This document shows, piece by piece, positions 6,968 through 64,000 of a DNA stretch of 64,000 nucleotides (position 1 is its first letter; every line of letters begins with the position of its first letter). Under the pieces are notes generated by a model that ran no database searches, had not been told where the DNA came from, and saw nothing but the letters and a program-made list of their open reading frames with translations. Location: assembly GCF_964355755.1 (NCBI RefSeq), contig NC_092679.1, forward strand, positions 18,459,432 to 18,523,431. The letters are read 5' to 3'. A program made the translations under genes and the position numbers. This stretch comes from Antedon mediterranea. Taxonomy: Eukaryota > Animalia > Echinodermata.

Positions 6968-7178
6968 CTATTTTCTTTTACGTCGCGAAAGAAAATGAAA
7001 ACACAGCTGTAAGTTTAATCAACAATTTGGTTACCTACTTTACCATTAGATTAAATTAAGTTTGTATTATATAGTATTTTAATATTTTCATAGATGTACA
7101 GTTATTATTACTCTATGGATTCAGAATTAAATAATTAATTGAATTTAATTAGACACAAAGAAATATTGCGGAACTTAC

Positions 7179-7380
7179 CTTTTTCTTTGGACTTAAAAGT
7201 TCCTTGTACTGTTCAGATTTGAGAAACCTAGGATAGCTGTCTGTCTTCATTAATTCGTGAATATGGTCCTCAGCCGCGTCAAATGCGTACCTTCCTGCCG
7301 TCTCCATGTGTTTCCGAGTCTCGTCCATAACGCGAGAGTCAATGTTGATGGGGCAGGGAGCATCCGCAGATAAAAAGTCC
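7179..7380 (-). CDS. RGS7: RGS7-like exon, RGS domain C-terminal part
   Basis: DFLSADAPCPINIDS...FDAAEDHIHELMKTDSYPRFLKSEQYKELLSPKKK; ag/gt boundaries, 202 nt. Confidence 0.93.
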
Positions 7381-7721
7381 CTATGAAAAGTTAGTCAGAA
7401 ACATTTTTTTAAATCAGTAAAAGCTAAAATGTTAAAGATGTACAGTATTGTCCACCAAAAACTTAAAAAATGAAGTAGTAATGTAGTTTTAATAAAGTTA
7501 ATTCATTTCCGTATAAAAAGACATTTTTTTTTAATACCAAAAATAAATCCATTGCAGTTTTTTCAGGTAAACAAATTTGTTTAGGTCCAATCTTTAGTGT
7601 AGTGGATAACTATTATGTGACATTAAAATGGCATTTTCAACAACAACAAAAATAAAAATTATTTTTCAGGGGGACAATACATCTTTAATAGTTACATCAT
7701 ATAATTAATACAAAAACTCAC

Positions 7722-11091: not shown

Positions 11092-14000
11092 TTAAAGTTG
11101 CCTGACATAAGACCGGAGAGCTGTCACAAATGTGTTAAAACTAAATAAAGAATGTTCTCTAATATAATTAGGAATCTCTTGCCATACACGGGGAAAATTA
11201 GTGTACAATGAATATTTAAAAGAATTGGTTCTGGCATATTTGTGTTTAAAAATAACTGATTCGGAATACCTTGGATTAAAATCAACAAAATCGTGAATAT
11301 TAAGATCAATTCGACCATACATACATTTCATAATAAAAAGTATACTGAGAAAACACACTCTCTGGTCCATAGATGGCAAATTTAAATGTTCGAGCCGTTG
11401 CTCGTAATCGCCCTTAGCACACAATTTTGTGATCCTTCGAAGAGGTTTATTTATGCTAGTAATATGTTGTTTTTGATGAGGCACCCAAACAGGGGCAGCA
11501 TACTCAAGTATGGGCCTACATAAACCGTTAAAAAGCCTCATCAAAATTACAGGGTCGTTAAATATCACAAAACGCTTTATGAATCCGACAATTTGGAGAG
11601 ATTTTGTGGTAATTGCGGACACATGCGTTGACCAAGAGAGATTGCTTTCAAAGTGAATACCAAGATATTTGTAGGAGGTAACTGCTTGAAGGTCATTAGT
11701 GTGAATATGATAACGAGCATGAATGGGATTACGTTTGCGAGTAATATGGAGAACTTTGCATTTTTTAGCATTAAGTCTCATCATGTTATTTTGACACCAT
11801 TCATCGATGTTATCTAGATCTTTTTGAAGTAATATCGCATCATATTCACATCTAATTGGCCTGAACACCACCGTATCGTCGGCATATTGTCTAATTTGAG
11901 AGGTGATCGACATAGGGAGGTCAAAAACGAACGAGTTGAAAAGTAATGGGCCAAGTACCGACCCTTGAGGTACACCTGAAACAACTTGTGTACGGTCAGA
12001 TATCAGTCCATTAAGGACAATCTGTTGGCAACGATCAGTAAGAAATGAGCCCATCCATTTCAAAATTGGACCACATAGACCAAAATTGTGGAGCTTACGT
12101 AATAGTTTAGGGTGACTCACACGGTCAAATGCTTTTTCCCAATCAAGGAATATAGCATCGACGACTGGTGGGTTCGTACCATCTAATATTTTGGACCATT
12201 CGTGGTATATGGATGAAGCTTGTGTAACACAAGATCTTCCAGGATAGAACCCGTGCTGTACAGGACTAACAAACGCATTACATTGAAGATGAAATAAAAA
12301 ATGATCAGCCACAATACGTTCTAGAACTTTGCCAACAACTGAACAAAGTGATATTGGTCTATAATTACTTATATCATTTCTACTACCAGATTTAAAAATT
12401 GGTACAACATTGGCCAATTTCCATTCCTTCACCACAATGCCTTGGTCAAGGGACATTTGAAAAATTTTAAGCAAAATTGGGGATATAACAGGTGCAGCCA
12501 TACTCAACATCATAGGGGTAATCCCGTCGGGCCCAGGGGATTTATTAGTATCTAAAGATAACAGGGCACGGAAAATTTGATCCCTATTGATGACAATACT
12601 AGTTAAAGGTAAGACAATTTCACTGTGATTACAATAAGATGTTTCGTTTGTTACATTGAAATCATCATTATCTTCAGTAAAATTAGAATGAAAATATTTC
12701 GAAAATGCTTTAGTAGCATTTAAATCTGAATCTATGATATTGCCGTTTAAAGTATACTTTCTTTCTGTTGCACATTTTCGTTTTTTCTTAACATATGACC
12801 AAAATCGTTTAGGATTAGATTTACAGCCTAAACTAAGATTATGGAGGTAATCATAATGAGACTTTCTCGTAGTTTCACGCAATGCGTTACTAAATTTTCT
12901 GTATTTTTCCCACTTATACATGTTATTCGGATGTTTCTTTGCATCTCGATAAAGGCGTCTCTTTTTACGAGACATTTTAATAATTTCAGTTGTTATCCAG
13001 ATTGATTTTCTGCGAGGTTTGCTTTTAGCTTTGGGTATGCAATCATCAATTGCGGCTAGAAAAAGGTCTTTAAAACAAGCCCAAGTGGAATCTAAGTTAA
13101 GCTGTGTAAAGCAGATATCCCACGGGACTGAATTAAGAGTTTGGAAAAAATCATCATGATTAACCTTTTTATATTGATAAAAATATCTAGGAACTTGTTT
13201 AGGACAGACCAACCGTCCAGCTAAGTCAAAGAAGATACCTATATGATCACTTGTACTAATTCCAGGTTCACCTGTGACATTATGAATAATGTCATTATTA
13301 TTACAGAACACAAGGTCTAACATAGAATGTGATCCATTATTTGCATATCTGGTAGGAAAATTTACAAGTTGAACAAGATTAAGAGATGACATTATATTTT
13401 CAAACTCAATATTACAGTTCGAGTTCGAACCAAAGTCATAATTGAAATCACCAGCGATGATCACAGCAGTATATTTGTGCATGATGGAGAGTATATTGTC
13501 TGAGAGTTCTTGAAAATTGGTTAACCATTCTCTTGATGAACTCGGGGGTCTATAAACACAGCCAAGCAGAATACTTCCTCCAGATACATGGATTTCAGCC
13601 AGTTGAACCTCAATATTAGTGTCAATGTCCACAGATAATACATCTATAGAATGTTTGCATGCTATCAGAACACCACCACCGTGTCTGTTTCTGTCGTTTC
13701 TATGAACACAGTAATCTAACGGGAAAATCTCTGCACTCTTAATCGTTGGATCCAACCATGTTTCAGTCAACAACACTATATCAACATTATTTTCTATCCG
13801 TACTTGAAGATCCTGGATTTTATTAGCAATACTTCGGGCGTTGAACATAGCGATTTTTATGTTGTTGGGTCGGTGGATTTCGTTTAAATCTTTCATTCTG
13901 GAATTCATTGGACCTGGATTTGTTTCAATATCACCAGCAGACAAGATATCAATACTAAAACATGCCGTATGGTTACTGTAATAAGCGATCGGACGTGAGA

Positions 14001-14334
14001 AAAACTTACGACTTTTAGGCTGACGACAAGCAGTTCCACACTGACAGTCAGGAAGGTATGCAAACTCTATTGTATTGTGTTTCACACCTGACCACTGATC
14101 GTTGTTGTTGACAGTTCGAAAAACAATAGGCCTAGCACTTGTGGCGTCGTTGACGAACCCGTGAAAAACGTAGTTTTTGTTGTCATAAACACACCGATCG
14201 TTGAAATTTACAGTTACCTGACTCCATTGAACATATTGGTTACTATTGATTAAAATTATGTAGTAAAACCAAAGGTATAAAATCGAAAATTCCTTGATTT
14301 TCCGCAGACCGTAAAACGGTGCTGTGTGAGTCAT
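11092..14334 (-). CDS. LINE ORF: N-terminal peptide + 2A-like motif + APE endonuclease + reverse transcriptase (1080 aa)
   Basis: APE motifs ETWL, GGGV, YRPP, GDFN, LDL, SDH; RT motifs KSPGPDG, YRPISL, QHGF, KAFD, GVPQGSVLGPLLF, YADD, KYLG. Confidence 0.95.
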   Translation of the reverse strand: MTHTAPFYGLRKIKEFSILYLWFYYIILINSNQYVQWSQVTVNFNDRCVYDNKNYVFHGFVNDATSARPIVFRTVNNNDQWSGVKHNTIEFAYLPDCQCGTACRQPKSRKFFSRPIAYYSNHTACFSIDILSAGDIETNPGPMNSRMKDLNEIHRPNNIKIAMFNARSIANKIQDLQVRIENNVDIVLLTETWLDPTIKSAEIFPLDYCVHRNDRNRHGGGVLIACKHSIDVLSVDIDTNIEVQLAEIHVSGGSILLGCVYRPPSSSREWLTNFQELSDNILSIMHKYTAVIIAGDFNYDFGSNSNCNIEFENIMSSLNLVQLVNFPTRYANNGSHSMLDLVFCNNNDIIHNVTGEPGISTSDHIGIFFDLAGRLVCPKQVPRYFYQYKKVNHDDFFQTLNSVPWDICFTQLNLDSTWACFKDLFLAAIDDCIPKAKSKPRRKSIWITTEIIKMSRKKRRLYRDAKKHPNNMYKWEKYRKFSNALRETTRKSHYDYLHNLSLGCKSNPKRFWSYVKKKRKCATERKYTLNGNIIDSDLNATKAFSKYFHSNFTEDNDDFNVTNETSYCNHSEIVLPLTSIVINRDQIFRALLSLDTNKSPGPDGITPMMLSMAAPVISPILLKIFQMSLDQGIVVKEWKLANVVPIFKSGSRNDISNYRPISLCSVVGKVLERIVADHFLFHLQCNAFVSPVQHGFYPGRSCVTQASSIYHEWSKILDGTNPPVVDAIFLDWEKAFDRVSHPKLLRKLHNFGLCGPILKWMGSFLTDRCQQIVLNGLISDRTQVVSGVPQGSVLGPLLFNSFVFDLPMSITSQIRQYADDTVVFRPIRCEYDAILLQKDLDNIDEWCQNNMMRLNAKKCKVLHITRKRNPIHARYHIHTNDLQAVTSYKYLGIHFESNLSWSTHVSAITTKSLQIVGFIKRFVIFNDPVILMRLFNGLCRPILEYAAPVWVPHQKQHITSINKPLRRITKLCAKGDYEQRLEHLNLPSMDQRVCFLSILFIMKCMYGRIDLNIHDFVDFNPRYSESVIFKHKYARTNSFKYSLYTNFPRVWQEIPNYIREHSLFSFNTFVTALRSYVRQL
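13909..13935 (-). other. 2A-like (StopGo ribosome-skipping) motif GDIETNPG|P, residues 134-142
   Basis: Exact match to the D(V/I)ExNPGP consensus, immediately upstream of the APE domain. Confidence 0.85.
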
Positions 14335-30027: not shown

Positions 30028-30342
30028 ACGCATTGTGGCCATCAGTTTGTGTGGACACTCATTGTGGCCATCAGCTTGTGTGGACACGCATTGTCGCCAT
30101 CAGCTTGTGTGGACACGCATTGTCGCCATCAGCTTGTGTGGACACTCATTGTGGCCTTCAGCTTGTGTGGACACGCATTCTGGCCATCAGCTTGTGTGGA
30201 CACGCATTGTAGCCATCAGCTTGTGTGGACACGCATTGTAGCCATCAGCTTGTGTGGACACGCATTGTGTCCATCAGCTTGTGTGGACACGCATTGTAGC
30301 CATCAGCTTGTGTGGACACGCATTGTGGCCATCAGCTTGTGG
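30028..30342. repeat. Minisatellite of 29-bp units (GCCATCAGCTTGTGTGGACACGCATTGT.)
   Basis: About 11 tandem copies. Confidence 0.95.
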
Positions 30343-38321: not shown

Positions 38322-39236
38322 CCAGGCAAACAAATTCTTATTCACTCTGGGCAAGTCAAATAATATTCACTCTGGGTAAGCCAATTCTTATTCACTCTGG
38401 GCAAGCCAATTCTTATTCATTCTGGGCAAGCCAATTCTTATTCATTCTGGGCAAGCCAATTCTTATTCATCCTGGGCAAGCAAATTCTTATTCACTCTGG
38501 GCAAGCCAATTATTATTCACTCTGGGCAAGCCAATTCTTATTCACTCTGGGCAAGCCAGTTCTTATTCATTCTGGGCAAGCCAATTCTTATTCACTCTGG
38601 GCAAGCCAATTCTTATTCACTCTGGGCAAGTCAATTCTTATTCATTCTGAGCAAGCCAATTCTTATTCACTCTGGGCAAGCCAATTCTTATTCACTCTGG
38701 GCAAGCCAATTCTTATTCACTCTGGGCAAGCCAATTCTTATTCACTCTGGGCAAGCCAATTCTTATTCATTCTGGGCAAGCCAATTCTTATTCATTCTGG
38801 GCAAGCCAATTTTTATTCACCCTGGGCAAGCCAATTCTTATTCACTCTTGGCAAGGCAATTCTTATTCATTCTGGGCAAGGCAATTCTTATTCACTCTGG
38901 GCAAGCCAATTCTTATTCACTCTGGGCAAGCCAATTCTTATTCATTCTGGGCAAGGCAATTCTTATTCACTCTGGACAAGGCAATTCTTATTCACTCTGG
39001 GCAAGGCAATTCTTATTCACTCTGGGCAAGCCAATTCTTATTCATTCTGGGCAAGGCAATTCTTATTCACCCTGGGCAAGCCAATTCTTATTCACTCTGG
39101 GCAAGCCAATTCTTATTCACTCTGGGCAAGCCAATTCTTATTCACCCTGGGCAAGCCAATTCTTATTCACTCTGGGCAAGCCAATTCTTATTCACTCTGG
39201 GCAAGCCAATTCTTATTCACTCTGGGCAAGCCAATT
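38322..39236. repeat. Minisatellite of 25-bp units (GGGCAAGCCAATTCTTATTCACTCT)
   Basis: About 36 tandem copies. Confidence 0.97.
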
Positions 39237-44939: not shown

Positions 44940-45090
44940 GACCCTCAGTTTGACAGGCGTGAGCCACGCCAGTCAATCAACATGCGTCAATACGTCAATC
45001 AAAATAAAATGTTTACCTTTGACACAAAACCGGAACAGCGTCGATGATCAAAACAAAAAAAACAGTTTGCAAAATAAATAAGATGGCAGA
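44940..45090 (+). promoter_or_regulatory. OTUB1 proximal promoter / 5'UTR
   Basis: CpG-richer segment with CGTCA half-CRE sites, ETS-like CCGGAA and YY1-like AAGATGGC overlapping the ATG. Confidence 0.4.
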
Positions 45091-45170
45091 CAATGAGAAT
45101 TTAGATGCAGAGAGTATAGATAACAAAAAGAAAATTAAGTTATCTGAGCCAGATATAATATCAGATGTTG
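45083..45170 (+). CDS. OTUB1: OTUB1 exon 1
   Basis: MADNENLDAESIDNKKKIKLSEPDIISDV; donor gtgagt. Confidence 0.8.
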
Positions 45171-45514
45171 GTGAGTGTTTTTTAGAATAAACAGTGCTAA
45201 ATTACAGTTATAATAGAAAGCTATTTATTGAGTGAGAAGTGAGAAATTAGATGTGATTTATGCATGGTGTTTGCGAAGCTCTGAGAGACCAGCCAAGCTA
45301 AGCCTGGCCTATGTTCGGAAAGTCGGTCAATGAGCGTGTACGAGAGGACAATGGGTGCATATATCGTAGGCCTACAAATGCCTATTAGCAGTAGGTAGCG
45401 GAAAGTTCCAATATCATCAATAGCAAGAGGTCGGCCTAGGCCTAGGTCCTCTCATATCATCATTTCTTTTTCTATACTCTACTTACCAGTTTTCAATTGA
45501 TTATTAATTAACAG

Positions 45515-45567
45515 GGAGAGCCAAAGATGAAGACATCATTGCCCAAGAAGATCGAATTCAGAATGAG
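45515..45567 (+). CDS. OTUB1: OTUB1 exon 2
   Basis: RAKDEDIIAQEDRIQNE. Confidence 0.9.
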
Positions 45568-45902
45568 GTATATTATATTAAAATACATATTTTGCAATTT
45601 CTCATACTCATTATTTATAAAAATAGTACTAATATTATTGATCATGATTCATTAACAACACTTACTTTTACTTGGTTAACATATAATATTATATGCCTAT
45701 ATATTATATAATGTAACAAATAATTACCTAAAAGTTTTTAATAAGGTTTTCCAACTCAAAAAATTTAATATAAATATATAATATAAAATTAATAAAATAG
45801 AAGCTACTAAACATTACAATAGCCTCACTTTGTCATCTTAATATTCCTAAAAATACTTTTTTCCTACAATACAATAAAGTAGTGAGGTTGATTACTTATT
45901 AG

Positions 45903-45998
45903 ATCAAAGAAAACACTGGCTTGATTGGCGCAAAAGAAGACTTGTCATCTTTACTTGAGCAATATGCAGATGATGAAGTTTACCAACAGAAGATTAGG
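45903..45998 (+). CDS. OTUB1: OTUB1 exon 3
   Basis: IKENTGLIGAKEDLSSLLEQYADDEVYQQKIR. Confidence 0.9.
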
Positions 45999-46131
45999 GT
46001 GAGCTTGACTATTTAATAATGTACAATAAAAATTCAGGAAAACATGTCCTGATCATTAAATATACAAAACACACAGACCAGAGTATAGTACACTACGATA
46101 ATTACAAACTACTGTATTTTTCATTTATCAG

Positions 46132-46250
46132 GAACTTAGAGGGCGATATCACCATGTTAGGAAATCGCGACCAGATGGTAACTGTTTTTTCCGATCATTT
46201 GGATATGCTTATATGGAATATCTACTCTCAGACAAGGAAGAATTGCACAG
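46132..46250 (+). CDS. OTUB1: OTUB1 exon 4 (catalytic Cys)
   Basis: ELRGRYHHVRKSRPDGNCFFRSFGYAYMEYLL. Confidence 0.95.
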
Positions 46251-46310
46251 GTTAGTGATGTTCTACATATACCTCCAAAAGACATGTTTTTTTTACCTCC
46301 TACAAATGTT

Positions 46311-46627
46311 GATAATAATAATAATAATACCACATTTATATAGCGCCCTTTTCATGAGTAATCATGCTCAAAGGCGCTTTACAAGCATTATTACCCCAGT
46401 ATTTTTTTGGGATCAAACACGTATAGAAACATACTCCCATAATGCAGCCGGTAACCAGCGCAAAGTTGTGTCTAGATCTAACTGGGTACCCATTTATACA
46501 CCTGGGTGGAGAGAGGCAACGTAAGTAAAGTATCTTGCCTACGGATATAAGCAATGCGGCGAGAGTTGGATTCGAACCTAGGTCTGACGATCGGTAGTCC
46601 AACGTCCAACACACTGCGCCACACGCC
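46311..46627 (-). mobile_element. tRNA-derived SINE (CORE-like body), copy 2
   Basis: A/B boxes, same body as 27241-27535, (TTA)n tail. Confidence 0.85.
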
Positions 46628-46653
46628 ATTACTAATATTTTTCTTATTCACAG

Positions 46654-46738
46654 ATTTAAAGAAATTGCTTTAAAAAGTAAGGATGAATTAGTTAGTCTTG
46701 GTTTTCCAACATTTACGATAGAAGAATTCCATGAAACA
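46654..46738 (+). CDS. OTUB1: OTUB1 exon 5
   Basis: FKEIALKSKDELVSLGFPTFTIEEFHET. Confidence 0.93.
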
Positions 46739-46987
46739 GTAAGTATATGTTAACAACAAAATATAATGCTGTCCTAGCAGATTCTTGCTAATGTATCTTT
46801 AATTTTTTCTTTATCATACAATAGGCAAATTCTATAATACAGTGTAACCTATGTATCACATGTGATGCCTGTATCATAGACCATTAGTCCTGACCTTACC
46901 ATAACATGATACTGGCACCACATACGATACGAAACACTAATACTAGAACATTTGCCTATTATGATATTAGACAGGTAATAACATAAT

Positions 46988-49164: not shown

Positions 49165-49585
49165 TTGTGTGCTTGCGTACACTAGTCCCTCTTATCAACT
49201 ATGAATAGTGGGGCGTATGCGGTATCAGTAATCAAAACTAGCTGCGATCTGTTTGCTGTTGACAAAAGTGCTCGCATACACTAGTTCCTCTTTCAACTTT
49301 GAATAGTGAAGTGCATGCGATATGGGTAATCACGACTGGCTGCGATCATCTGTTGACAAAAGTGCTCGCGTACACAAGTTCCTCTTTCAACCTTGAATAG
49401 TGGAGTGCGTGTGGGTATGGGTAATCATGACTAGGTTCTGGTCATGTTGACAAAAGTGCTCACGTACACAAGTTCCTCTTTCAACTTTGAATAGTGGGAC
49501 GCATGTGGTATGGGTAATCACGACTAGCTGCGATCTGTTTGTCGTTGAAAAGAGTGCTCGCATAACACTAGTTCTTTTTTCAACT
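49165..49585. repeat. Diverged tandem repeat of about 95-100-bp units
   Basis: GTGCTCGC.TACAC.AGTTCCTCTTTCAAC.TTGAATAGTG...GGGTAATCA.GACT...GTTGACAAAA repeated about 4.5 times. Confidence 0.85.
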
Positions 49586-51602: not shown

Positions 51603-51985
51603 CTGAAAACAGTCAAGGATCATTTAATGTGAAATTATAAATATAAAAGATAATAATTGGTACAAACTTTTTCAAGTGAATAAAGGGATAAAGAGAAAGA
51701 ACAGAAAGTTTTTAAAAGAAAACATGAGTGTAGAATAGATAAAGAAAAAGTAAACTTTAAAGGAGATAGATTCTAAACTATAGAGTATAATAAACTGTAC
51801 ATATAAACTGAATTCTGATTGCAAAATTTTGGCTAATTTATATTGTAGACATGCCCCTCTATTGCAATGTCAAGTCAGTCCAATATTTCACAAAAAATTC
51901 AAAATATTTGGCATCGACTACAATTTATGTATTCATATCATAAATATTTGACAGTCAACATTGAATTGCACTAAACAAGACGTAC

Positions 51986-52084
51986 CGATTGCTGGATATA
52001 GTCCCATTAACAGCAAAGAATAGAAGAAGAAATCGTGATGAACAAGGTATACTAAGGCTTTGGAAATGGCATCTTGCTGGTAAT
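51986..52084 (-). CDS. TMEM62: TMEM62 exon (its 5' part and acceptor form the 118-bp repeat unit)
   Basis: YQQDAISKALVYLVHHDFFFYSLLLMGLYPAI; tttcag/gtacgt; the phase 1-1 exon needed between its neighbours. Confidence 0.85.
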
Positions 52085-52680
52085 CTGAAATAAAAGAATG
52101 CAACACTGAATTGTGGGAGATTTGCACTGAATTGTGGATAGAAGAAGAAATCGTGATAAACAAGGTATATTAAGGCTTTGGAAATGGCATCTTGCTGGTA
52201 ATCTGAAATAAAAGAATGCAACACTGAATTGTGGGAGATTTGCACTGAATTGTGGATAGAAGAAGAAATCGTGATAAACAAGGTATATTAAGGCTTTGGA
52301 AATGGCATCTTGCTGGTAATCTGAAATAAAAGAATGCAACACTGAATTGTGGGAGATTTGCACTGAATTGTGGATAGAAGAAGAAATCGTGATAAACAAG
52401 GTATATTAAGGCTTTGGAAATGGCATCTTGCTGGTAATCTGAAATAAAAGAATGCAACACTGAATTGTGGGAGATTTGCACTGAATTGTGGATAGAAGAA
52501 GAAATCGTGATAAACAAGGTATATTAAGGCTTTGGAAATGGCATCTTGCTGGTAATCTGAAATAAAAGAATGCAACACTGAATTGTGGGAGATTTGCACT
52601 GAATTGTAGATAGAAGAAGAAATCGTGATGAACACGAAAATTGCATCTTGCTGATAATGTAAAATAAAAGAATGCAATAA
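52020..52680. repeat. Tandem repeat of 118-bp units, about 5.5 copies
   Basis: Exact 118-bp periodicity (52085, 52203, 52321, 52439, 52557). Confidence 0.97.
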
Positions 52681-54733: not shown

Positions 54734-55046
54734 CACATTGACTGCCAAGGCATTTTCCGTAATTTCTGTCCCAGTGCCAAGTCCCGTTTGAGATGATTAT
54801 ATTGAGTGTGAGGGCGCCATATTCAATGCATGAGGGAATAAACACAAACAAACATATGACATTTATTTTTAGATTATCGTTTACGTACATCATTCATAAA
54901 CTGCCATGCGATAATTCCTGTTCCAGTCACCACTGCCAGCGATCTACATACAATACAAAAGTGCTACGATTTTGACGTAGTATTACGTCTTGGCAAGTAG
55001 CGACACGCAATTTTTGACGTATAAATACGCCGTGGCAGTGAACGTG
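54734..55046. mobile_element. piggyBac-like MITE
   Basis: TTAA on both sides; TIRs CACATTGACTGCCA / TGGCAGTGAACGTG. Confidence 0.7.
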
Positions 55047-55096
55047 TTAATGCATTTTCTACATTTTAACTCTTAAATTAATGGAAGAACACTTAC

Positions 55097-55221
55097 TGCA
55101 AAATATTTGATAGTCGTGCATGGTCGGTTACGATGATGGATGTTGGATAATGACCAAAGAAAACGGTTTGGTTGCTTTTTAAAGTTGTTTGTGAAAGATC
55201 TTCAATTTTCTTTAATTCGGG
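55097..55221 (-). CDS. TMEM62: TMEM62 exon
   Basis: PELKKIEDLSQTTLKSNQTVFFGHYPTSIIVTDHARLSNIL. Confidence 0.93.
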
Positions 55222-55317
55222 CTACAAGAAAAATCACACAATATTATGAACAATTTTAAAATCTTTATTTAACTATTAACATTTTTCAAAAATCACAAAA
55301 AATGGTTGGGTGAAAGA

Positions 55318-58300
55318 TGGTTTACACATAAGCACCGGTCATTGATTGTTCAGTACACACTATATAAACATGGTTCACACATAAGCACCAGTGGCTGGTC
55401 ATGGTTCAGTACACACTATATAAACATGGTTCACACATAAGCACCAGTGGCTGGTCATGGTTCAGTACACACTATATAAACATGGTTCACACATAAGCAC
55501 CAGTGGCTGGTCATGGTTCAGTACACACTATATAAACATGGTTCACACATAAGCACCAGTGGCTGGTCATGGTTCAGTACACACTATATAAACATGGTTC
55601 ACACATAAGCACCAGTGGCTGGTCATGGTTCAGTACACACTATATAAACATGGTTCACACATAAGCACCAGTGGCTGGTCATGGTTCAGTACACACTATA
55701 TAAACATGGTTCACACATAAGCACCAGTGGCTGGTCATGGTTCAGTAGACACTATATAAACCTGGTTCACACATAAGCACCAGTGGCCAGTCATGGTTCA
55801 GTACACACTATATAAACCTGGTTCACACATAAGCACCAGTGGCCAGTCATGGTTCAGTACACACTATATAAACCTGGTTCACACATAAGCACCAGTGGCC
55901 AGTCATGGTTCAGTACACACTATATAAACCTGGTTCACACATAAGCACCAGTGGCTGGTCATGGTTCAGTACACACTATATAAACCTGGTTCACACATAA
56001 GCACCAGTGGCCAGTCATGGTTCAGTACACACTATATAAACCTGGTTCACACATAAGCACCAGTGGCTGGTCATGGTTCAGTACACACTATATAAACCTG
56101 GTTCACACATAAGCACCAGTGGCCAGTCATGGTTCAGTACACACTATATAAACATGGTTCACACATAAGCACCAGTGGCCAGTCATGGTTCAGTACACAC
56201 TATATAAACCTGGTTCACACATAAGCACCAGTGGCCAGTCATGGTTCAGTACACACTATATAAACCTGGTTCACACATAAGCACCAGTGGCCAGTCATGG
56301 TTCAGTACACACTATATAAACCTGGTTCACACATAAGCACCAGTGGCCAGTCATGGTTCAGTACACACTATATAAACCTGGTTCACACATAAGCACCAGT
56401 GGCCAGTCATGGTTCAGTACACACTATATAAACCTGGTTCACACATAAGCACCAGTGGCTGGTCATGGTTCAGTACACACTATATAAACCTGGTTCACAC
56501 ATAAGCACCAGTGGCCAGTCATGGTTCAGTACACACTATATAAACCTGGTTCACACATAAGCACCAGTGGCTGGTCATGGTTCAGTACACACTATATAAA
56601 CCTGGTTCACACATAAGCACCAGTGGCCAGTCATGGTTCAGTACACACTATATAAACATGGTTCACACATAAGCACCAGTGGCTGGTCATGGTTCAGTAC
56701 ACACTATATAAACATGGTTCACACATAAGCACCAGTGGCTGGTCATGGTTCAGTACACACTATATAAACATGGTTCACACATAAGCACCAGTGGCTGGTC
56801 ATGGTTCAGTACACACTATATAAACATGGTTCACACATAAGCACCAGTGGCTGGTCATGGTTCAGTACACACTATATAAACATGGTTCACACATAAGCAC
56901 CAGTGGCTGGTCATGGTTCAGTACACACTATATAAACATGGTTCACACATAAGCACCAGTGGCTGGTCATGGTTCAGTACACACTATATAAACATGGTTC
57001 ACACATAAGCACCAGTGGCTGGTCATGGTTCAGTACACACTATATAAACATGGTTCACACATAAGCACCAGTGGCTGGTCATGGTTCAGTAGACACTATA
57101 TAAACCTGGTTCACACATAAGCACCAGTGGCCAGTCATGGTTCAGTACACACTATATAAACCTGGTTCACACATAAGCACCAGTGGCCAGTCATGGTTCA
57201 GTACACACTATATAAACCTGGTTCACACATAAGCACCAGTGGCCAGTCATGGTTCAGTACACACTATATAAACCTGGTTCACACATAAGCACCAGTGGCT
57301 GGTCATGGTTCAGTACACACTATATAAACCTGGTTCACACATAAGCACCAGTGGCCAGTCATGGTTCAGTACACACTATATAAACCTGGTTCACACATAA
57401 GCACCAGTGGCTGGTCATGGTTCAGTACACACTATATAAACCTGGTTCACACATAAGCACCAGTGGCCAGTCATGGTTCAGTACACACTATATAAACATG
57501 GTTCACACATAAGCACCAGTGGCCAGTCATGGTTCAGTACACACTATATAAACCTGGTTCACACATAAGCACCAGTGGCCAGTCATGGTTCAGTACACAC
57601 TATATAAACCTGGTTCACACATAAGCACCAGTGGCCAGTCATGGTTCAGTACACACTATATAAACCTGGTTCACACATAAGCACCAGTGGCCAGTCATGG
57701 TTCAGTACACACTATATAAACCTGGTTCACACATAAGCACCAGTGGCCAGTCATGGTTCAGTACACACTATATAAACCTGGTTCACACATAAGCACCAGT
57801 GGCTGGTCATGGTTCAGTACACACTATATAAACCTGGTTCACACATAAGCACCAGTGGCCAGTCATGGTTCAGTACACACTATATAAACCTGGTTCACAC
57901 ATAAGCACCAGTGGCTGGTCATGGTTCAGTACACACTATATAAACCTGGATCACACATAAGCACCAGTGGCCAGTCATGGTTCAGTACACACTATATAAA
58001 CATGGTTCACACATAAGCACCAGTGGCTGGTCATGGTTCAGTACACACTATATAAACCTGGTTCACACATAAGCACCAGTGGCCAGTCATGGTTCAGTAC
58101 ACACTATATAAACATGGTTCACACATAAGCACCAGTGGCCAGTCATGGTTCAGTACACACTATATAAACCTGGTTCACACATAAGCACCAGTGGCCAGTC
58201 ATGGTTCAGTACACACTATATAAACCTGGTTCACACATAAGCACCAGTGGCCAGTCATGGTTCAGTACACACTATATAAACCTGGTTCACACATAAGCAC

Positions 58301-60239
58301 CAGTGGCCAGGCATGGTTCAGTACACACTATATAAACCTGGTTCACACATAAGCACCAGTGGCCAGTCATGGTTCAGTACACACTATATAAACCTGGTTC
58401 ACACATAAGCACCAGTGGCTGGTCATGGTTCAGTACACACTATATAAACCTGGTTCACACATAAGCACCAGTGGCCAGTCATGGTTCAGTACACACTATA
58501 TAAACATGGTTCACACATAAGCACCAGTGGCCAGTCATGGTTCAGTACACACTATATAAACATGGTTCACACATAAGCACCAGTGGCCAGTCATGGTTCA
58601 GTACACACTATATAAACCTGGTTCACACATAAGCACCAGTGGCCAGTCATGGTTCAGTACACACTATATAAACATGGTTCACACATAAGCACCAGTGGCC
58701 AGTCATGGTTCAGTACACACTATATAAACCTGGTTCACACATAAGCACCAGTGGCCAGTCATGGTTCAGTACACACTATATAAACCTGGTTCACACATAA
58801 AGCACCAGTGGCCAGTCATGGTTCAGTACACACTATATAAACCTGGTTCACACATAAGCACCAGTGGCCAGTCATGGTTCAGTACACACTATATAAACCT
58901 GGTTCACACATAAGCACCAGTGGCCAGTCATGGTTCAGTACACACTATATAAACCTGGTTCACACATAAGCACCAGTGGCTGGTCATGGTTCAGTACACA
59001 CTATATAAACCTGGTTCACACATAAGCACCAGTGGCTGGTCATGGTTCAGTACACACTATATAAACCTGGTTCACACATAAGCACCAGTGGCCAGTCATG
59101 GTTCAGTACACACTATATAAACCTGGTTCACACATAAGCACCAGTGGCCAGTCATGGTTCAGTACACACTATATAAACCTGGTTCACACATAAGCACCAG
59201 TGGCCAGTCATGGTTCAGTACACACTATATAAACCTGGTTCACACATAAGCACCAGTGGCCAGGCATGGTTCAGTACACACTATATAAACCTGGTTCACA
59301 CATAAGCACCAGTGGCCAGTCATGGTTCAGTACACACTATATAAACCTGGTTCACACATAAGCACCAGTGGCCAGTCATGGTTCAGTACACACTATATAA
59401 ACCTGGTTCGCACATAAGCACCAGTGGCCAGTCATGGTTCAGTACACACTATATAAACCTGGTTCACACATAAAGCACCAGTGGCTGGTCATGGTTCAGT
59501 ACACACTATATAAACCTGGTTCACACATAAGCACCAGTGGCCAGTCATGGTTCAGTACACACTATATAAACCTGGTTCACACATAAGCACCATGTGGCTG
59601 GTCATGGTTCAGTACACACCATAACGTGGTTCACACATAAAGCACCAGTGGCTGGTCATGGTTCAGTACACACTATATAAACCTGGTTCACACATAAGCA
59701 CCAGTGGCTGGTCATGGCTAAGTACACACTATATAAACCTGGTTCACACATAAGCACCAGTGGCCAGTCATGGTTCAGTACACACCATAAACTGGTTCAC
59801 GCATAAGCACCAGTGGCCAGTCATGGTTCAGTACACACTATATAAACCTGGTTCACACATAAGCACCAGTGGCTGGTCATGGTTCAGTACACACTATATA
59901 AACCTGGTTCACACATAAGCACCAGTGGCTGGTCATGGTTCAGTACACACTATATAAACCTGGTTCACACATAAGCACCAGTGGCCAGTCATGGTTCAGT
60001 ACACACCATAACCTGGTTCACACATAAGCACCAGTGGCCAGTCATGGTTCAGTACACACCATAACCTGGTTCACACATAAGCACCAGTGGCTGGTCATGG
60101 TTCAGTACACACCATAACATGGTTCACACATAAGCACCAGTGGCTGGTCATGGTTCAGTACACAACATAACCTGGTTCACACATAAGCACCAGTGGCTGG
60201 TCATGGTTCAGTACACAACATAACCTGGTTCACGCACCA
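55318..60239. repeat. Satellite of 56-bp units, about 88 copies, intronic in TMEM62
   Basis: Unit CATGGTTCAGTACACACTATATAAAC(A/C)TGGTTCACACATAAGCACCAGTGG(CTG/CCA)GT. Confidence 0.98.
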
Positions 60240-60714
60240 TCAATCCATTTCATATGAGGTCTGCCCTTTTCTCTTTTACCTTCTATTATTATTATATTCC
60301 AATCAAATATCAATATCACACTTTTTTTTTCTTGCTGCAGCAATCATGAAATGACAGATTATTATAGTGGAATCCAAAATAATCAAGCACAAACAACATA
60401 TTTTAGTTAACATTGTATTTTAATATTAATGCAAATGCGTTTTTTGTAAGACTATTTAAACAGACTATTATCCGAAAACTCAACTATTAGGATGCACTTT
60501 CAGGTAATAACTTAGGATTAAACAAATTCAGGGCACATTAAAAAAAACAAGTTAAAATAATACACACACAGAAAGTATTAGTTAGATATTAACAAACTGA
60601 TATTATATATTGCCATATTTTGTTATATTTACACATTATATATTTTGTCTAAAAACTATAATATGTATCAAAATAGCTTAAGATTAAAACGTATTGAAAC
60701 TATCTGTTAGTCTA

Positions 60715-60798
60715 TCAATGTATGTTTGCTTACTAATACTTTGTAGAGTGCTAAACATTTTCTCAAACTCTGTATTTGTAGTTTGAATAGGTTTTTGT
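60715..60798. repeat. 84-bp direct repeat, copy 1 (3' of the Ig gene)
   Basis: 79 of 84 bases identical to 62591-62674. Confidence 0.92.
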
Positions 60799-60976
60799 TT
60801 CTTTAATCTGTGCTTGGGGCCTGATATGCTAAATAGCTGATCAGGCATGATCATAATAATTCTTTTAATGATATGAACCTACATATAATTAATATGTTTA
60901 TATCAAATTTAGTTGAGTTTGGTTTTAATATTTTGCCAACGATGCAATATTGTGAGTTTTCAAAAAAAGGTCCTGA

Positions 60977-62203
60977 TTAATTCTCCAATGTAAAATAATC
61001 ATGTGGTACTTCAGCATCTTTTTTGCTAACTCCTTCTCTGCAGTTATTGCCTGCATCTGCATTCGTATGCCTACTGTAGATGTAGTTAGTCTCGGCACTC
61101 TTTGTTGTATCTTTAATTGTGCAGTAGACTCCATCATCAGTTGTAGGGGGAATGTTAATAGTAGGCCTACGGACGGAATTCATAGTGGTGCTGTTTCTCG
61201 CATTACTTCCAGCAGGTTGTGGAGTTGTGCCAGATTTTCTCTTGAGTAGGTAGATGAGAATGAACACCACTATCAACAGAATGACTATAGTTGATGTCAG
61301 TGTTATGGTAAGGATGTTGGCATTCTCATTGGCATCTTTCACAGTAAATTCTTCCTCATCAGAACTACTTCGAGCATTAGTTGTCACCAGACACTTTATA
61401 ACATAATCACCAGCTGTTAAATTGTTGAAGCATCTTTCATTGCCATGATAATTATTTAAGTTTTGTCCATTTAACATCCAAGTATAGTGTTCCTCACCAA
61501 ACCCTCCTATAGCCTCACACTTAAAGCAACGTTCATGCATTTTCTTTATTTTAACTCTTAATTGTCTAGGATAAACTTTTAAAAGCATTGTATAGCACCG
61601 ATGGTTTTTAATCATCGAAGACATACTTCTTGTAATACAGTAAAAGAATATACCATCTCCCCGTTCATACCCTTTAAAGGTCTGATTAAAACTCATTGTG
61701 TTCCTATTTAAATTATACGACTTTGTAATGTTGTTTTTTCCTTGGATCCATCCAATTGTCAATTTATTTTGTTTGTTCTGTTTTTTTATCTGATTCACCT
61801 TACATTTGATTGTTAGTTCTTCACCTTCTATGATGTACTCCATGAAATCTTCACAGGCAATTCTCCAATTAGAATATAGTGTATCCATTTGTACAACACG
61901 TGAAGGAATCAGAAAATACTGATTATCGTCATCTTGGCAGGTGTATAATCCAACATCTTTTTGTACATTGAAGGAGATGAAGATTTCACATTTTACTTGT
62001 GTCAGCCTTGATGAGTATTGTTGGGAGCTATTGTTGCCAACAATATATGAAACATTGAACTCTTTACTTGACGGAATGATTTTAACAGCTTGTATCCCAT
62101 TTTTTTTGTTGGAGTAATACCGTGAATCAAACTTAACGTCCTGTTCTTCTGTAACAGCTTTGGCAAACAGCAAACTGATAAACGCCATTAGACACAACAT
62201 CAT
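60977..62203 (-). CDS. Type-I membrane protein with Ig-like domains (408 aa, uninterrupted ORF), nested in a TMEM62 intron
   Basis: Signal peptide MMLCLMAFISLLFAKA; Ig-like motifs DVGLYTC, ELTIKC...IGW...FYC, FKCEA...YTW...GDYVIKC; TM ILTITLTSTIVILLIVVFILIYLL followed by KRK; tail Tyr motifs VYCTI, YIYS, DYFTL. Confidence 0.85.
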   Translation of the reverse strand: MMLCLMAFISLLFAKAVTEEQDVKFDSRYYSNKKNGIQAVKIIPSSKEFNVSYIVGNNSSQQYSSRLTQVKCEIFISFNVQKDVGLYTCQDDDNQYFLIPSRVVQMDTLYSNWRIACEDFMEYIIEGEELTIKCKVNQIKKQNKQNKLTIGWIQGKNNITKSYNLNRNTMSFNQTFKGYERGDGIFFYCITRSMSSMIKNHRCYTMLLKVYPRQLRVKIKKMHERCFKCEAIGGFGEEHYTWMLNGQNLNNYHGNERCFNNLTAGDYVIKCLVTTNARSSSDEEEFTVKDANENANILTITLTSTIVILLIVVFILIYLLKRKSGTTPQPAGSNARNSTTMNSVRRPTINIPPTTDDGVYCTIKDTTKSAETNYIYSRHTNADAGNNCREGVSKKDAEVPHDYFTLEN

Positions 62204-62590
62204 TTCTAAGTTTAATGAATTGGATTCAACTTCTTTGTTCTTTGATAACTTGGTTCGAGTAAACAGATTCCTATATTTTAACTGTATGTATTTCTCCTAA
62301 TAATGGTTAAACGAAACTGAATGTCTAGTAAAGTTTGCCAAAGGCAATAAAAACCTACAATTTACTTTGTTTTGCTGCCGTCACGTGTGCTATATTTATA
62401 ATTTAAAATATAATTACTTTCTTTTTCTTATGTAAACTTAATATGATTATGTTTGTAACTTCTGAGTATAAAAGTTAAATGCATATTACTGTACAAGCAA
62501 TGAAATACACACAATCATAATTGCACTGAATCATGTCACATCAGGAAAAGACATTTCTGTTGCTAACAGCTACCATGAAAAAAAAAAGTT

Positions 62591-62674
62591 TCAATGCATG
62601 TTTGCTTTCTAATACTTTGTACAGTGCTAAAAATTTCCTCAAACTCTGTATTTGTAGTTTGAATAGGTTTTTGT
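62591..62674. repeat. 84-bp direct repeat, copy 2 (5' of the Ig gene, abutting the satellite)
   Basis: 79 of 84 bases identical to 60715-60798. Confidence 0.92.
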
Positions 62675-62892
62675 ACCAAAGACCAGTCATGGTTCAGTAC
62701 ACACCAAATAAACCTGGTTCACACATAAGCACCAGAGACCAGTCATGGTTCAGTACACACCATATAAACTGGTTCACACATAAGCACCAGAGACCAGTCA
62801 TGGTTCAGTACATACCATAACCTGGTTCACACATAACTACCAGAGACCGGTCATGGTTCAGTACATACCATTCCTGGTTCACACATAAAGCA
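62675..62892. repeat. Second block of the 56-bp satellite (about 4 diverged copies)
   Basis: Same unit as 55318-60239, with a CCAGAGACCAG variant. Confidence 0.93.
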
Positions 62893-62911
62893 TTTATATA
62901 TTTGTTCTTAC

Positions 62912-63062
62912 CTCTTCTATTGCGCCAAAGAAATTAAATGGCCTTCCTGGGCCTGGATCTAACAGAGCATCAACTGCCACAAAAGAATATGTACCAAACG
63001 AAAACTTTTTTTCTACTACGAAGGAGCTAACATCACCTTTTTGGCCAGAAATGGAATACTTT
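62912..63062 (-). CDS. TMEM62: TMEM62 exon
   Basis: KYSISGQKGDVSSFVVEKKFSFGTYSFVAVDALLDPGPGRPFNFFGAIEE. Confidence 0.93.
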
Positions 63063-63205
63063 CTATGATAAAGAGAAAAAGATAAAAACATACAATAGAA
63101 ACTGGAAAATAGCTGTGATAGCGAAAGAGACATTTCTTTACACTCTGTTCAAAAGCATTTTTAAATTGATTCATAAAATCTATTGATAAATAAATGGAAG
63201 CTTAC

Positions 63206-63251
63206 CTAAAATAGCTACTATCATCATTTTTGGATAAAACATGAAATAAAT
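63206..63251 (-). CDS. TMEM62: TMEM62 exon (most 5' exon in the window)
   Basis: (D)LFHVLSKNDDSSYF(R); gtttcag/gtaagc, phase matches the next exon. Confidence 0.8.
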
Positions 63252-64000
63252 CTGAAACAAATAAACAATAAAAATATTATTTATATCAATTGAAACTAGC
63301 GACCGTTTCTCTTTAGAAAGGTTCCTCAAACTGTTTAAGCCTGACTGACAGGTTCCCAGACAAACTGAATTAGGCTAGGTAATCTATCATTTTGTGTGAA
63401 ACTATTGCAAACAGACATTTTTATTTTTTAAATAGTCACATATAAAATTTGAGCATCACACCTCTGTCACTCATCTCAATGATATGCAAATTAGCTTAAA
63501 TATGCAAATTAGGGTGAATCTACAGGATTACTATATCTCAAAAACTACTAGTCAGAGAGAAGTACAACATTTGACTCTTGAACCCATTTCTCAATGTTTG
63601 CATACACAATGTGACTAAAATGTCCCTAGAGACTTTGTTTTGCCCTCAAATGATTTAGATACAGGTTTCAAATAGCCAGCGTATGACTGCTTTGTAATTC
63701 CCAAAATCACACCTAATTTTGGTTAAAATAATTTCATCAAAGGAAAAATTAAATAACAATACAAATTTTCCAATTTAATCTCTTCCCGAGGATTAGTTTC
63801 CAGAAATTTATCAAATTGCTATAATTTTTATGTGTTGTTTTCTGTTAAATCAATTGTTTTGAATATAATACTTGCTTCCTTGTTTCCTTTTGAAAATTAT
63901 GAAAAATATTTCCTTATATGGTCATCTACTTTTAGACAACATCAAAATTATTTTTAAAATAAGCATTGAGATAACTACTTATTAATTTATAATTTTAAAT

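What the first reader, a model, noticed from the sequence alone, without database searches (positions are those of the whole stretch)
60240..62674. Ig-receptor gene cassette inserted into a satellite inside a TMEM62 intron, on the host strand
Seen: a 2.4-kb non-satellite block splits one 56-bp satellite into about 88 and about 4 copies, with ACCA at both junctions. It carries an intact 408-aa ORF (signal peptide, about three divergent Ig-like domains, TM helix, tail with YCTI/YIYS/YFTL motifs) with no coding introns, whereas the neighbouring genes are intron-rich. Known: nested genes are more often antisense to the host, and Ig receptors with tail Tyr motifs are typical of immune or recognition families. 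Inference: this is a mobilised copy of a fast-evolving receptor family, inserted after the satellite arose; satellite flanks could drive copy-number change by unequal recombination.
Basis: partly seen in the sequence, partly recalled or inferred. Interest (0 to 1): 0.78.

Follow-up and report, generated by a model that had tools for sequence, protein, structure and literature searches.

The report
Stray Ig-receptor gene inside intron satellite
A feather star carries a whole intron-free gene for a predicted antibody-like cell-surface receptor inside a repeat tract in another gene's intron; it was likely pasted there from a tandem receptor cluster during DNA repair, an ordinary way for a gene to move, here in a little-studied receptor family.

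Summary
A 2,435-bp block (60240-62674) splits a 56-bp minisatellite (88 + 4 copies) in a TMEM62 intron and holds an intact 408-aa ORF on the host strand. The right junction recurs in a second individual, whose TMEM62 mRNA is spliced across this intron. A related species shows the satellite in few copies, with satellite-like letters where the cassette would start. The gene has several 80-99% relatives in both species; relatives in the second species are also unbroken across three domain borders. An 84-bp spacer motif brackets the gene and, in relatives, runs on into a neighbour's 3' flank. So the block is likely a slice of a tandem array, copied as DNA into a break, not a retrocopy or transposon. 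Domains 2-3 model as Ig folds; domain 1 is unresolved. The tail has two YxxI/L motifs but no canonical ITIM, ITAM or hemITAM. No satellite-driven amplification was seen. Independent expression is unshown, and 25 listed differences split 20 nonsynonymous to 5 synonymous, the neutral ratio. The scan had already noted intronless Ig arrays on other pieces of this genome, not this sequence. Ordinary mechanism, apparently undescribed family.

The parts
55097..55221 (-). TMEM62 exon downstream of the host intron
   Evidence: tblastn to P0022, 79%; AG acceptor at 55222; joined to the 62912 exon in an X5 contig
55318..60239 (.). Left arm of the 56-bp minisatellite, about 88 copies, 18 unit types; last unit lacks 6 bp and ends in ACCA
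60236..60239 (+). ACCA at the left junction (target-site duplication or microhomology)
   Evidence: sequence; junction itself seen only in the assembly
60240..62674 (-). Inserted cassette, 2,435 bp, 31.5% GC, no terminal inverted repeat, no poly(A)
60240..60290 (-). Short stretch that reads like the C-terminus of an RTE-type LINE ORF2, cut by the junction (resemblance recalled)
   Evidence: translation; no Pfam match; untested
60240..60714 (-). Likely spacer/promoter DNA of the next gene of the donor array, cut before its ATG
   Evidence: contigs join 60423 to 62496 (X5, X6, X7) and 62551 to 60257 (X6); inference
60715..60798 (-). Second copy of the 84-bp spacer motif, 179 bp after the stop codon
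   Evidence: 94% to 62591-62674
60977..62203 (-). Single-exon ORF, 408 aa: signal-like N-terminus, D1 (about 17-112, fold unresolved, V-like features), D2 (113-212) and D3 (213-289) Ig-like, TM, tail with two YxxI/L motifs
62204..62590 (-). 5' flank with a TATA-like word (62394-62400) and a CACGTG word (62382-62387); promoter role untested
   Evidence: sequence; homologous contig in organism B, 62207-62630, 16 other letters and 25 gaps
62591..62674 (-). First copy of the 84-bp spacer motif, ending at the cassette end
   Evidence: in relatives it runs on into a 60799-like flank
62675..62888 (.). Right arm of the minisatellite, 4 copies of a variant type (52/56, 52/56 and 46/56 identical to the commonest left unit), beginning with ACCA
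   Evidence: bridged to the cassette by an X5 contig
62912..63062 (-). TMEM62 exon upstream of the host intron, GT donor at 62911
   Evidence: tblastn 81%; spliced contig in X5

Best explanation
The 2.4-kb block is an intron-free gene for a predicted type I Ig-superfamily receptor, with its flanks, sitting on the host strand in a minisatellite that fills a TMEM62 intron of a feather star; it was likely copied as DNA from a tandem array of such genes into a break in the repeat by end-joining repair. Shown: the block, the ORF, the host intron, splicing of TMEM62 across it in a second individual, the right junction in that individual, several relatives in two species, and satellite-like rather than cassette letters at this position in organism B's contigs. 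Inferred: the donor is a tandem array, because the 84-bp motif occurs before and after the gene and in relatives runs on into a neighbour's 3' flank; the cut ends lie in spacer DNA, so the gene came with its own promoter region; ACCA is a short duplication or microhomology left by repair, and the 6-bp loss beside the left junction is a repair scar; the left arm expanded to 88 copies in this lineage only. Predicted: if expressed, the protein would bind a ligand with its outer domains and signal or be internalised through two YxxI/L motifs; TMEM62 would splice it out as intron. I put the odds that this copy is a working gene at about even.
For: No poly(A), no terminal inverted repeat, 471 bp of 5' and 737 bp of 3' flank. 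Loose ends behind 62674 in X1 (2 contigs), X6 (4) and X7 (2) read like window 60799 onward, not satellite; one of the X1 pair is probably the window's own left copy. Joints 62603>60747, 60423>62496 and 62551>60257 show the two flanks mixed in relatives. Organism-B contigs run unbroken over 61249-61666 and 61828-62108, across the D1/D2, D2/D3 and D3/TM borders. X5 record 9 covers 62581-62769 with 6 other letters and 2 gaps, 94 letters on the cassette side. X5 record 16 joins exon 62914-63065 to the 55221 exon and to the exon at 63208. X6 record 20 and X7 record 27 (1,124 nt, depth 235 vs 238 and 50 vs 41 for the exon) continue left of 62678 for 911 letters that start satellite-like. Summed satellite depth relative to the exon is 19,510 (X1) against 749 (X6) and 657 (X7). 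D2-D3 align to CD22 at Z 10.3, rmsd 5.6, 160 residues.
Against: No whole genome was available, so no donor array was seen in one piece. The left junction is bridged by no listed contig (1,654 pieces not shown). Organism B's 1,124-nt contig is not joined to the TMEM62 exon by a single contig, only 30 of its 911 further letters were shown, and both B samples are from one study. The closest listed B contigs differ from the cassette by about 4-11% in substitutions while the TMEM62 piece differs by 5 of 264, so the copy may be older than the species split. Of 25 listed ORF differences 20 are nonsynonymous and 5 synonymous, as expected without selection (20% synonymous; a biased subset of 615 rows). 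A source-sample contig over 61811-62667 has one gap that lies in 61811-62519 at a place not shown; it could be a frameshift in the other allele.
Confidence: 0.7

Rival explanations
1. The insertion is older than the split of organisms A and B, and B lost it cleanly by recombination between satellite units on either side, the process the first reader proposed.
For: B's closest listed contigs differ from the cassette more than TMEM62 does between the species. Satellite on both sides in direct orientation allows clean deletion. Most of the cassette has only single-copy depth in the source sample (24-39 vs 38), so no near-identical donor is evident except over 61228-61486 (depth 64).
Against: Receptor arrays diverge and recombine fast, so the divergence need not date the event. 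B has few satellite units. No outgroup was tested either way.
Confidence: 0.13
2. The cassette is a non-autonomous mobile element (composite Helitron-like or LTR-like) whose ends are the 84-bp repeats and which carries the receptor gene.
For: The right 84-bp copy ends exactly at the cassette end; ACCA is duplicated; the plus strand starts with TC after an A, and a 7-bp stem lies 12 bases from the other end (sequence; Helitron features recalled).
Against: No terminal inverted repeat, no TG...CA ends, no CTRR end; the left 84-bp copy is 475 bp inside the cassette; in all listed relatives the motif runs on into a gene's 3' flank instead of unrelated sites (7 loose-end rows not shown); no second copy in the 64-kb window.
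Confidence: 0.08
3. The cassette is a retrocopy of a spliced receptor mRNA.
For: No coding introns; short duplication; an RTE-like fragment at one end (recalled motif); an intact LINE ORF elsewhere in the window.
Against: No poly(A); carries a TATA-like word and about 280 bp beyond it, plus a second spacer motif downstream; relatives in DNA-type contigs are unbroken across three domain borders.
Confidence: 0.04
4. The block is an assembly artefact or viral DNA.
For: Long satellites are error-prone; the left junction is seen only in the assembly; intronless Ig membrane genes occur in large DNA viruses (recalled).
Against: The right junction recurs in another sample and study. No relative in viral contigs or metagenome contigs. 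The close named relatives are two Antedon mediterranea proteins on 41- and 31-Mb contigs.
Confidence: 0.03

Closest known systems
Ectopic (non-tandem) duplication of clustered immune genes, as in plant NLRs (PMC3782705, passages) by end-joining repair with microhomology (PMC3449122, passages)
   Same: A member of a clustered, fast-changing family is found away from its likely cluster, with little or no homology at the junctions.
   Different: Here the landing site is a minisatellite in an intron, on the host strand, and the single-exon gene is small enough to move whole with its flanks.
Sea-urchin Sp185/333 (SpTransformer) clusters (PMC5103432, abstract and section 17)
   Same: Echinoderm recognition genes next to tandem repeats, with repeats proposed to drive duplication and deletion.
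   Different: There GA/GAT microsatellites surround every gene in the cluster; here one copy lies in a 56-bp minisatellite that belongs to the host intron, and listed relatives are not followed by the satellite. The proteins are unrelated in layout.
Botryllus fester co-receptors FcoR (PMC12582321, abstract and section 13); CD22/Siglec, CEACAM and SIRP-type receptors
   Same: Type I membrane proteins with Ig-like domains and two or more tail tyrosine motifs; both motifs here fit FcoR 'core-1' YxxI/L/V, and the first (two acidic residues, then GVYCTI) resembles its hemITAM-like motifs.
   Different: No sequence homology detected; no canonical ITIM or hemITAM; FcoR genes are multi-intron; structural scores are generic Ig-level (12-16% identity).
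Antedon mediterranea XP_071950092.1 (P0001) and XP_071957072.1 (P0002), uncharacterised; unnamed P0003
   Same: Same ectodomain family, 40-41% identity, E 7e-62 and 9e-37, shared cysteines.
   Different: Tails unrelated (P0001) or absent (P0002); their gene structure and position could not be fetched.
Nested genes (PMC3192792, passages)
   Same: Single-exon gene within a host intron; about 41% of human nested genes are single-exon and about 63% antisense.
   Different: Same-strand and recent; transcriptional interference with the host is possible but TMEM62 is still spliced in X5.

Membership tests
Immunoglobulin superfamily receptor | Ig beta-sandwich fold in the ectodomain (D2, D3) | tested here: met
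   Model from a 4-sequence alignment (mean pLDDT 57; D3 78-89, D2 51-68); top match CD22, Z 10.3, rmsd 5.6, 160 aligned, tied with Dscam1 and non-IgSF sandwiches; Pfam Ig_3 19.7 bits, below the 30-bit cut-off
Immunoglobulin superfamily receptor | B-F strand cysteines with a C-strand tryptophan (pattern recalled) | tested here: met
   D2: C134, W152, C189; D3: C229, W242, C271; extra cysteine pairs in each
Immunoglobulin superfamily receptor | Signal peptide and one TM helix | tested here: met
   Hydropathy peaks at residue 1 and 294-326; helix 291-323 in the model; no dedicated signal-peptide predictor was run
V-set Ig domain (D1) | Nine-strand V fold with canonical Cys and Trp | tested here: inconclusive
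   F-strand DxGxYxC motif present, no Trp, only C72 and C89; model alone gives four strands, best Z 5.0 to an SH3-like fold; Atlas features resemble V-set clusters at 0.90-0.92, below unnamed clusters at 0.93
ITIM/ITSM inhibitory receptor | [ILVS]xYxx[ILV] or TxYxx[VI] in the tail | tested here: not met
   0 of 4 tail tyrosines match
ITAM/hemITAM activating receptor | Paired YxxL/I 6-12 residues apart (recalled), or [ED][ED][ED]xYxxL (PMC12582321) | tested here: not met
   Y360 and Y403 are 43 residues apart; Y360 has 2 of 3 acidic residues and I in place of L
Retrocopy | Poly(A) tail, no upstream genomic flank, introns lost relative to a parent | tested here: not met
   No poly(A); 471 bp of 5' flank; relatives unbroken over three domain borders; the signal/D1 border was not seen spanned in a relative
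TIR transposon, LTR element or Helitron | Terminal inverted repeats, TG...CA long repeats, or TC...CTRR ends (recalled) | tested here: not met
TIR transposon, LTR element or Helitron | Other copies share the same ends at unrelated sites | tested here: inconclusive
   Listed contigs run past the right end into a gene flank; no genome to search
Nested gene | Lies wholly within a spliced host intron | tested here: met
Nested gene | Own transcript from its own promoter | tested here: inconclusive
   X5 holds contigs 97-99% like the ORF, but also the intronic junction; contigs show neither strand nor start
Sp185/333-type repeat-bounded immune cluster | The same tandem repeat flanks every family member | tested here: not met
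   Listed relatives continue into gene flank, not satellite (tables were cut)
Immune or allorecognition receptor | Expression in immune cells, ligand binding, signalling | not testable with these tools
   No raw RNA reads or tissue labels were offered

The most novel reading that the evidence does not exclude
Unstable intronic minisatellites act as landing pads that seed new loci of a feather-star Ig-receptor family: this copy is a working, selected receptor that has escaped reshuffling in its array, is expressed from inside a housekeeping gene, and is switched present or absent between lineages by recombination of the flanking repeats.
Probability: 0.12. Interest if true: 0.65.

Novelty: new member of a known kind. 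Interest (0 to 1): 0.35.

Why it matters
It is a clean, datable example of how a compact recognition gene leaves its cluster with its own flanks, and it gives a ready presence/absence marker between two feather-star species. It also points to a crinoid Ig-receptor family that has only unnamed database entries. The event itself is an ordinary ectopic duplication; it would matter more if other family members also sit in minisatellites or if this copy is shown to be expressed and selected.

Tried and rejected
Whole genome: none held, so no paralogue map, flank comparison or dN/dS. Protein searches: 2 hits among 1,195 candidates; the same 2 with a profile among 4,062; 21 hits at E<=0.001 in the representative library, 3 of them clear family members and the rest weak matches mostly to D3, the six fetched being repeat proteins of PKD-like look. 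PDB sequences: best E 0.23, CD80. Viral and metagenome contigs: 0 of 66 and 0 of 187 pattern matches confirmed. Rfam: 0 matches in 55000-64000. D1 fold search: no Ig fold listed, model too weak to exclude one. Sequencing runs: no RNA holder listed on record; X5 was only a guess until its spliced contig was seen. Earlier findings by sequence or nearby place: nothing. The bacterial promoter scan is not meaningful for this animal (2 found, 2.5 expected). RTE-like end: no Pfam match for it or for the LINE-like piece at 2-223. An in-frame TMEM62-Ig fusion through the AG two bases before the ATG was considered and rejected: a phase-0 donor would meet a stop at once (sequence). Literature: eight searches; in the listings (titles and abstract starts only) none describes this family or a gene nested in TMEM62; most subscription papers and all supplements were not seen.

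Full report
Observation. The block at 60240-62674 separates 88.1 copies of a 56-bp unit (55318-60233) from 4.0 further copies (62675-62888). The array resumes in phase, with ACCA on both sides, and the last left unit lacks 6 bp. The block holds one ATG-to-stop ORF of 408 aa on the minus strand, far longer than any in 1000 shuffles (maximum 172). The host is TMEM62: the last exon found the Anneissia japonica protein at 72%, and that protein maps to 10 exon blocks on the minus strand, with a GT-AG intron at 62911..55222 holding satellite and cassette. The organism is a feather star by these relatives and by the two Antedon mediterranea hits below; I did not place it further.

The protein. It has a hydrophobic start, an ectodomain of about 275 residues, one TM helix and an 85-residue tail. 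Its clear sequence relatives are two uncharacterised A. mediterranea proteins (40-41%) and one unnamed 133-aa protein. Pfam Ig_3 scores below its cut-off. Language-model features match CD22, Siglec and HEPACAM clusters at 0.92-0.94. A model from four sequences is weak overall (pLDDT 57), but D2-D3 align with tandem Ig domains (CD22, Z 10.3, rmsd 5.6, 160 residues; Foldseek agrees at a generic level). D1 folded alone gave four strands and no Ig match, although its features lean to V-set; it stays unresolved. None of the four tail tyrosines fits an ITIM or ITSM; Y360 and Y403 are YxxI and YxxL, 43 residues apart. By the definitions in PMC12582321 (section 13 read) they are core-1 motifs and the first is near, but not, a hemITAM. 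A recognition role is inferred from layout only.

An 84-bp repeat, 94% identical, lies at 60715-60798 and 62591-62674, 1,876 bp apart, so it comes once before and once after the gene. There is no terminal inverted repeat or poly(A).

Other samples. Nine runs hold part of the stretch: four of one sample (probably the source), one more of organism A from another study (X5), three of organism B, one unlabelled. I laid 4 of the 9, all contigs. Over the cassette all four show several relatives at 80-99% (up to 6, 9 and 8 contigs carry another letter at one place in X1, X5 and X6; the totals laid also include an unrelated high-copy repeat at about 63375-63770). In organism B, contigs run unbroken across the D1/D2, D2/D3 and D3/TM borders, so the lack of coding introns belongs to the family. 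Contigs join 62603 to 60747, 60423 to 62496 and 62551 to 60257, and where the 84-bp motif ends, listed contigs of X1, X6 and X7 go on with letters like window 60799 onward. The simplest reading is a tandem array in which the motif lies in each spacer; the cassette is then one gene, its 5' spacer and part of the next spacer. I did not see such an array in one piece, since no genome is held.

The junction and the empty site. X5 has a 189-nt contig over 62581-62769 that bridges the right junction, and a 1,196-nt contig that joins the 62912 exon to both neighbouring TMEM62 exons, so X5 is RNA, the junction is not an assembly error of one animal, and the host is spliced across the intron (the spliced mRNA could come from an allele without the cassette). 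In X1 a contig from 62672 to 62743, with three cassette bases, has depth 37.2 against 38.4 for the exon, which suggests one copy on each haplotype. In organism B a 1,124-nt contig at single-copy depth continues left of 62678 with satellite-like letters resembling the start of the window's left arm, and no listed piece bridges cassette and satellite (63 pieces and 7 loose ends not shown). B has no cover on the left-arm units and about a twenty-sixth to a thirtieth of the satellite depth (the tool warns that depth is no copy number). So the satellite is older than the cassette, and the large expansion is likely specific to organism A. Limits: the left junction is bridged by no listed contig, B's contig is tied to the exon only through a chain of overlapping satellite contigs, and both B samples come from one study.

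Is it working? For: intact ORF, own 5' flank with a TATA-like word, presence in two animals, and X5 contigs 97-99% like the ORF (62032-62246, 3 other letters; 61461-61666, 6). Against or open: those contigs may be host pre-mRNA or a near-identical relative; 25 listed ORF differences split 20 to 5, matching the 20% synonymous share expected without selection (these are the ORF rows among 40 shown of 615, and two pairs share a codon); a source-sample contig has an unplaced gap that may fall in the ORF. About even odds.

Mechanism. Most likely (0.7) a DNA-level copy from an array was captured at a break in the minisatellite by end-joining, leaving a 4-bp duplication or microhomology; end-joining with microhomology is a recognised source of duplications (PMC3449122, passages), and ectopic copies of clustered immune genes are known in plant NLRs (PMC3782705, passages). 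Rivals: old insertion with clean loss in B (0.13), mobile element (0.08), retrocopy (0.04), artefact or virus (0.03; searches found no viral or metagenomic relative). Same-strand nesting is a minority, not a rarity: about 63% of human nested genes are antisense (PMC3192792, passage).

Novelty. The scan had noted arrays of intronless Ig receptors on other pieces of this genome (unreviewed AI notes); look-ups by this DNA and protein found no look-alike, so whether they are the donor family is untested. Literature listings show no description of this family or locus. Verdict: real and well supported as an insertion, ordinary in mechanism, in an apparently undescribed family. New member of a known kind; interest 0.35.

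Noticed in passing
window 51984-52634 (minus): A 118-bp tandem array (5.2 copies, 99% matches) repeats the splice acceptor and first part of a TMEM62 exon; only the last copy runs on to the exon's end, so the intron holds several near-identical acceptors in a row.
   Followed up: partly
runs X6 and X7 laid on window 62757-62822: Organism B appears to have a different, unrelated insertion in the same satellite (loose ends of 64 and 71 letters), hinting that this repeat takes up insertions repeatedly.
   Followed up: no
window 11092-14334 (minus): Intact 1,080-aa LINE ORF with endonuclease and reverse transcriptase domains (Pfam RVT_1 E 7e-36), possibly recently active.
   Followed up: partly
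window 63375-63770: High-copy repeat in the next TMEM62 intron, depth hundreds of times the single-copy level in all four runs; not identified.
   Followed up: no
window 61065, 61066, 61158: The window's letters differ from every contig laid in X1, X5 and X6, including the probable source sample: private alleles or assembly errors, all changing residues.
   Followed up: partly
window 62702-62741: In X5 the satellite unit beside the cassette bears letters like the window's third right-hand unit, so the right arm may differ in copy number between animals.
   Followed up: no
window 45000-46750 (plus) and about 7150-7400 (minus): Open stretches that look like exons of an otubain-type deubiquitinase and of an RGS protein (names recalled, not tested).
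   Followed up: no
window 38325-39236, 30028-30341, 49169-49535: Further minisatellites (25 bp x 36.5, 29 bp x 10.8, 94 bp x 3.9): tandem arrays are common in this region.
   Followed up: no
P0001 against the window ORF: The ectodomain aligns at about 40% but the tails are unrelated, as expected if ectodomains and tails are shuffled in this family.
   Followed up: no
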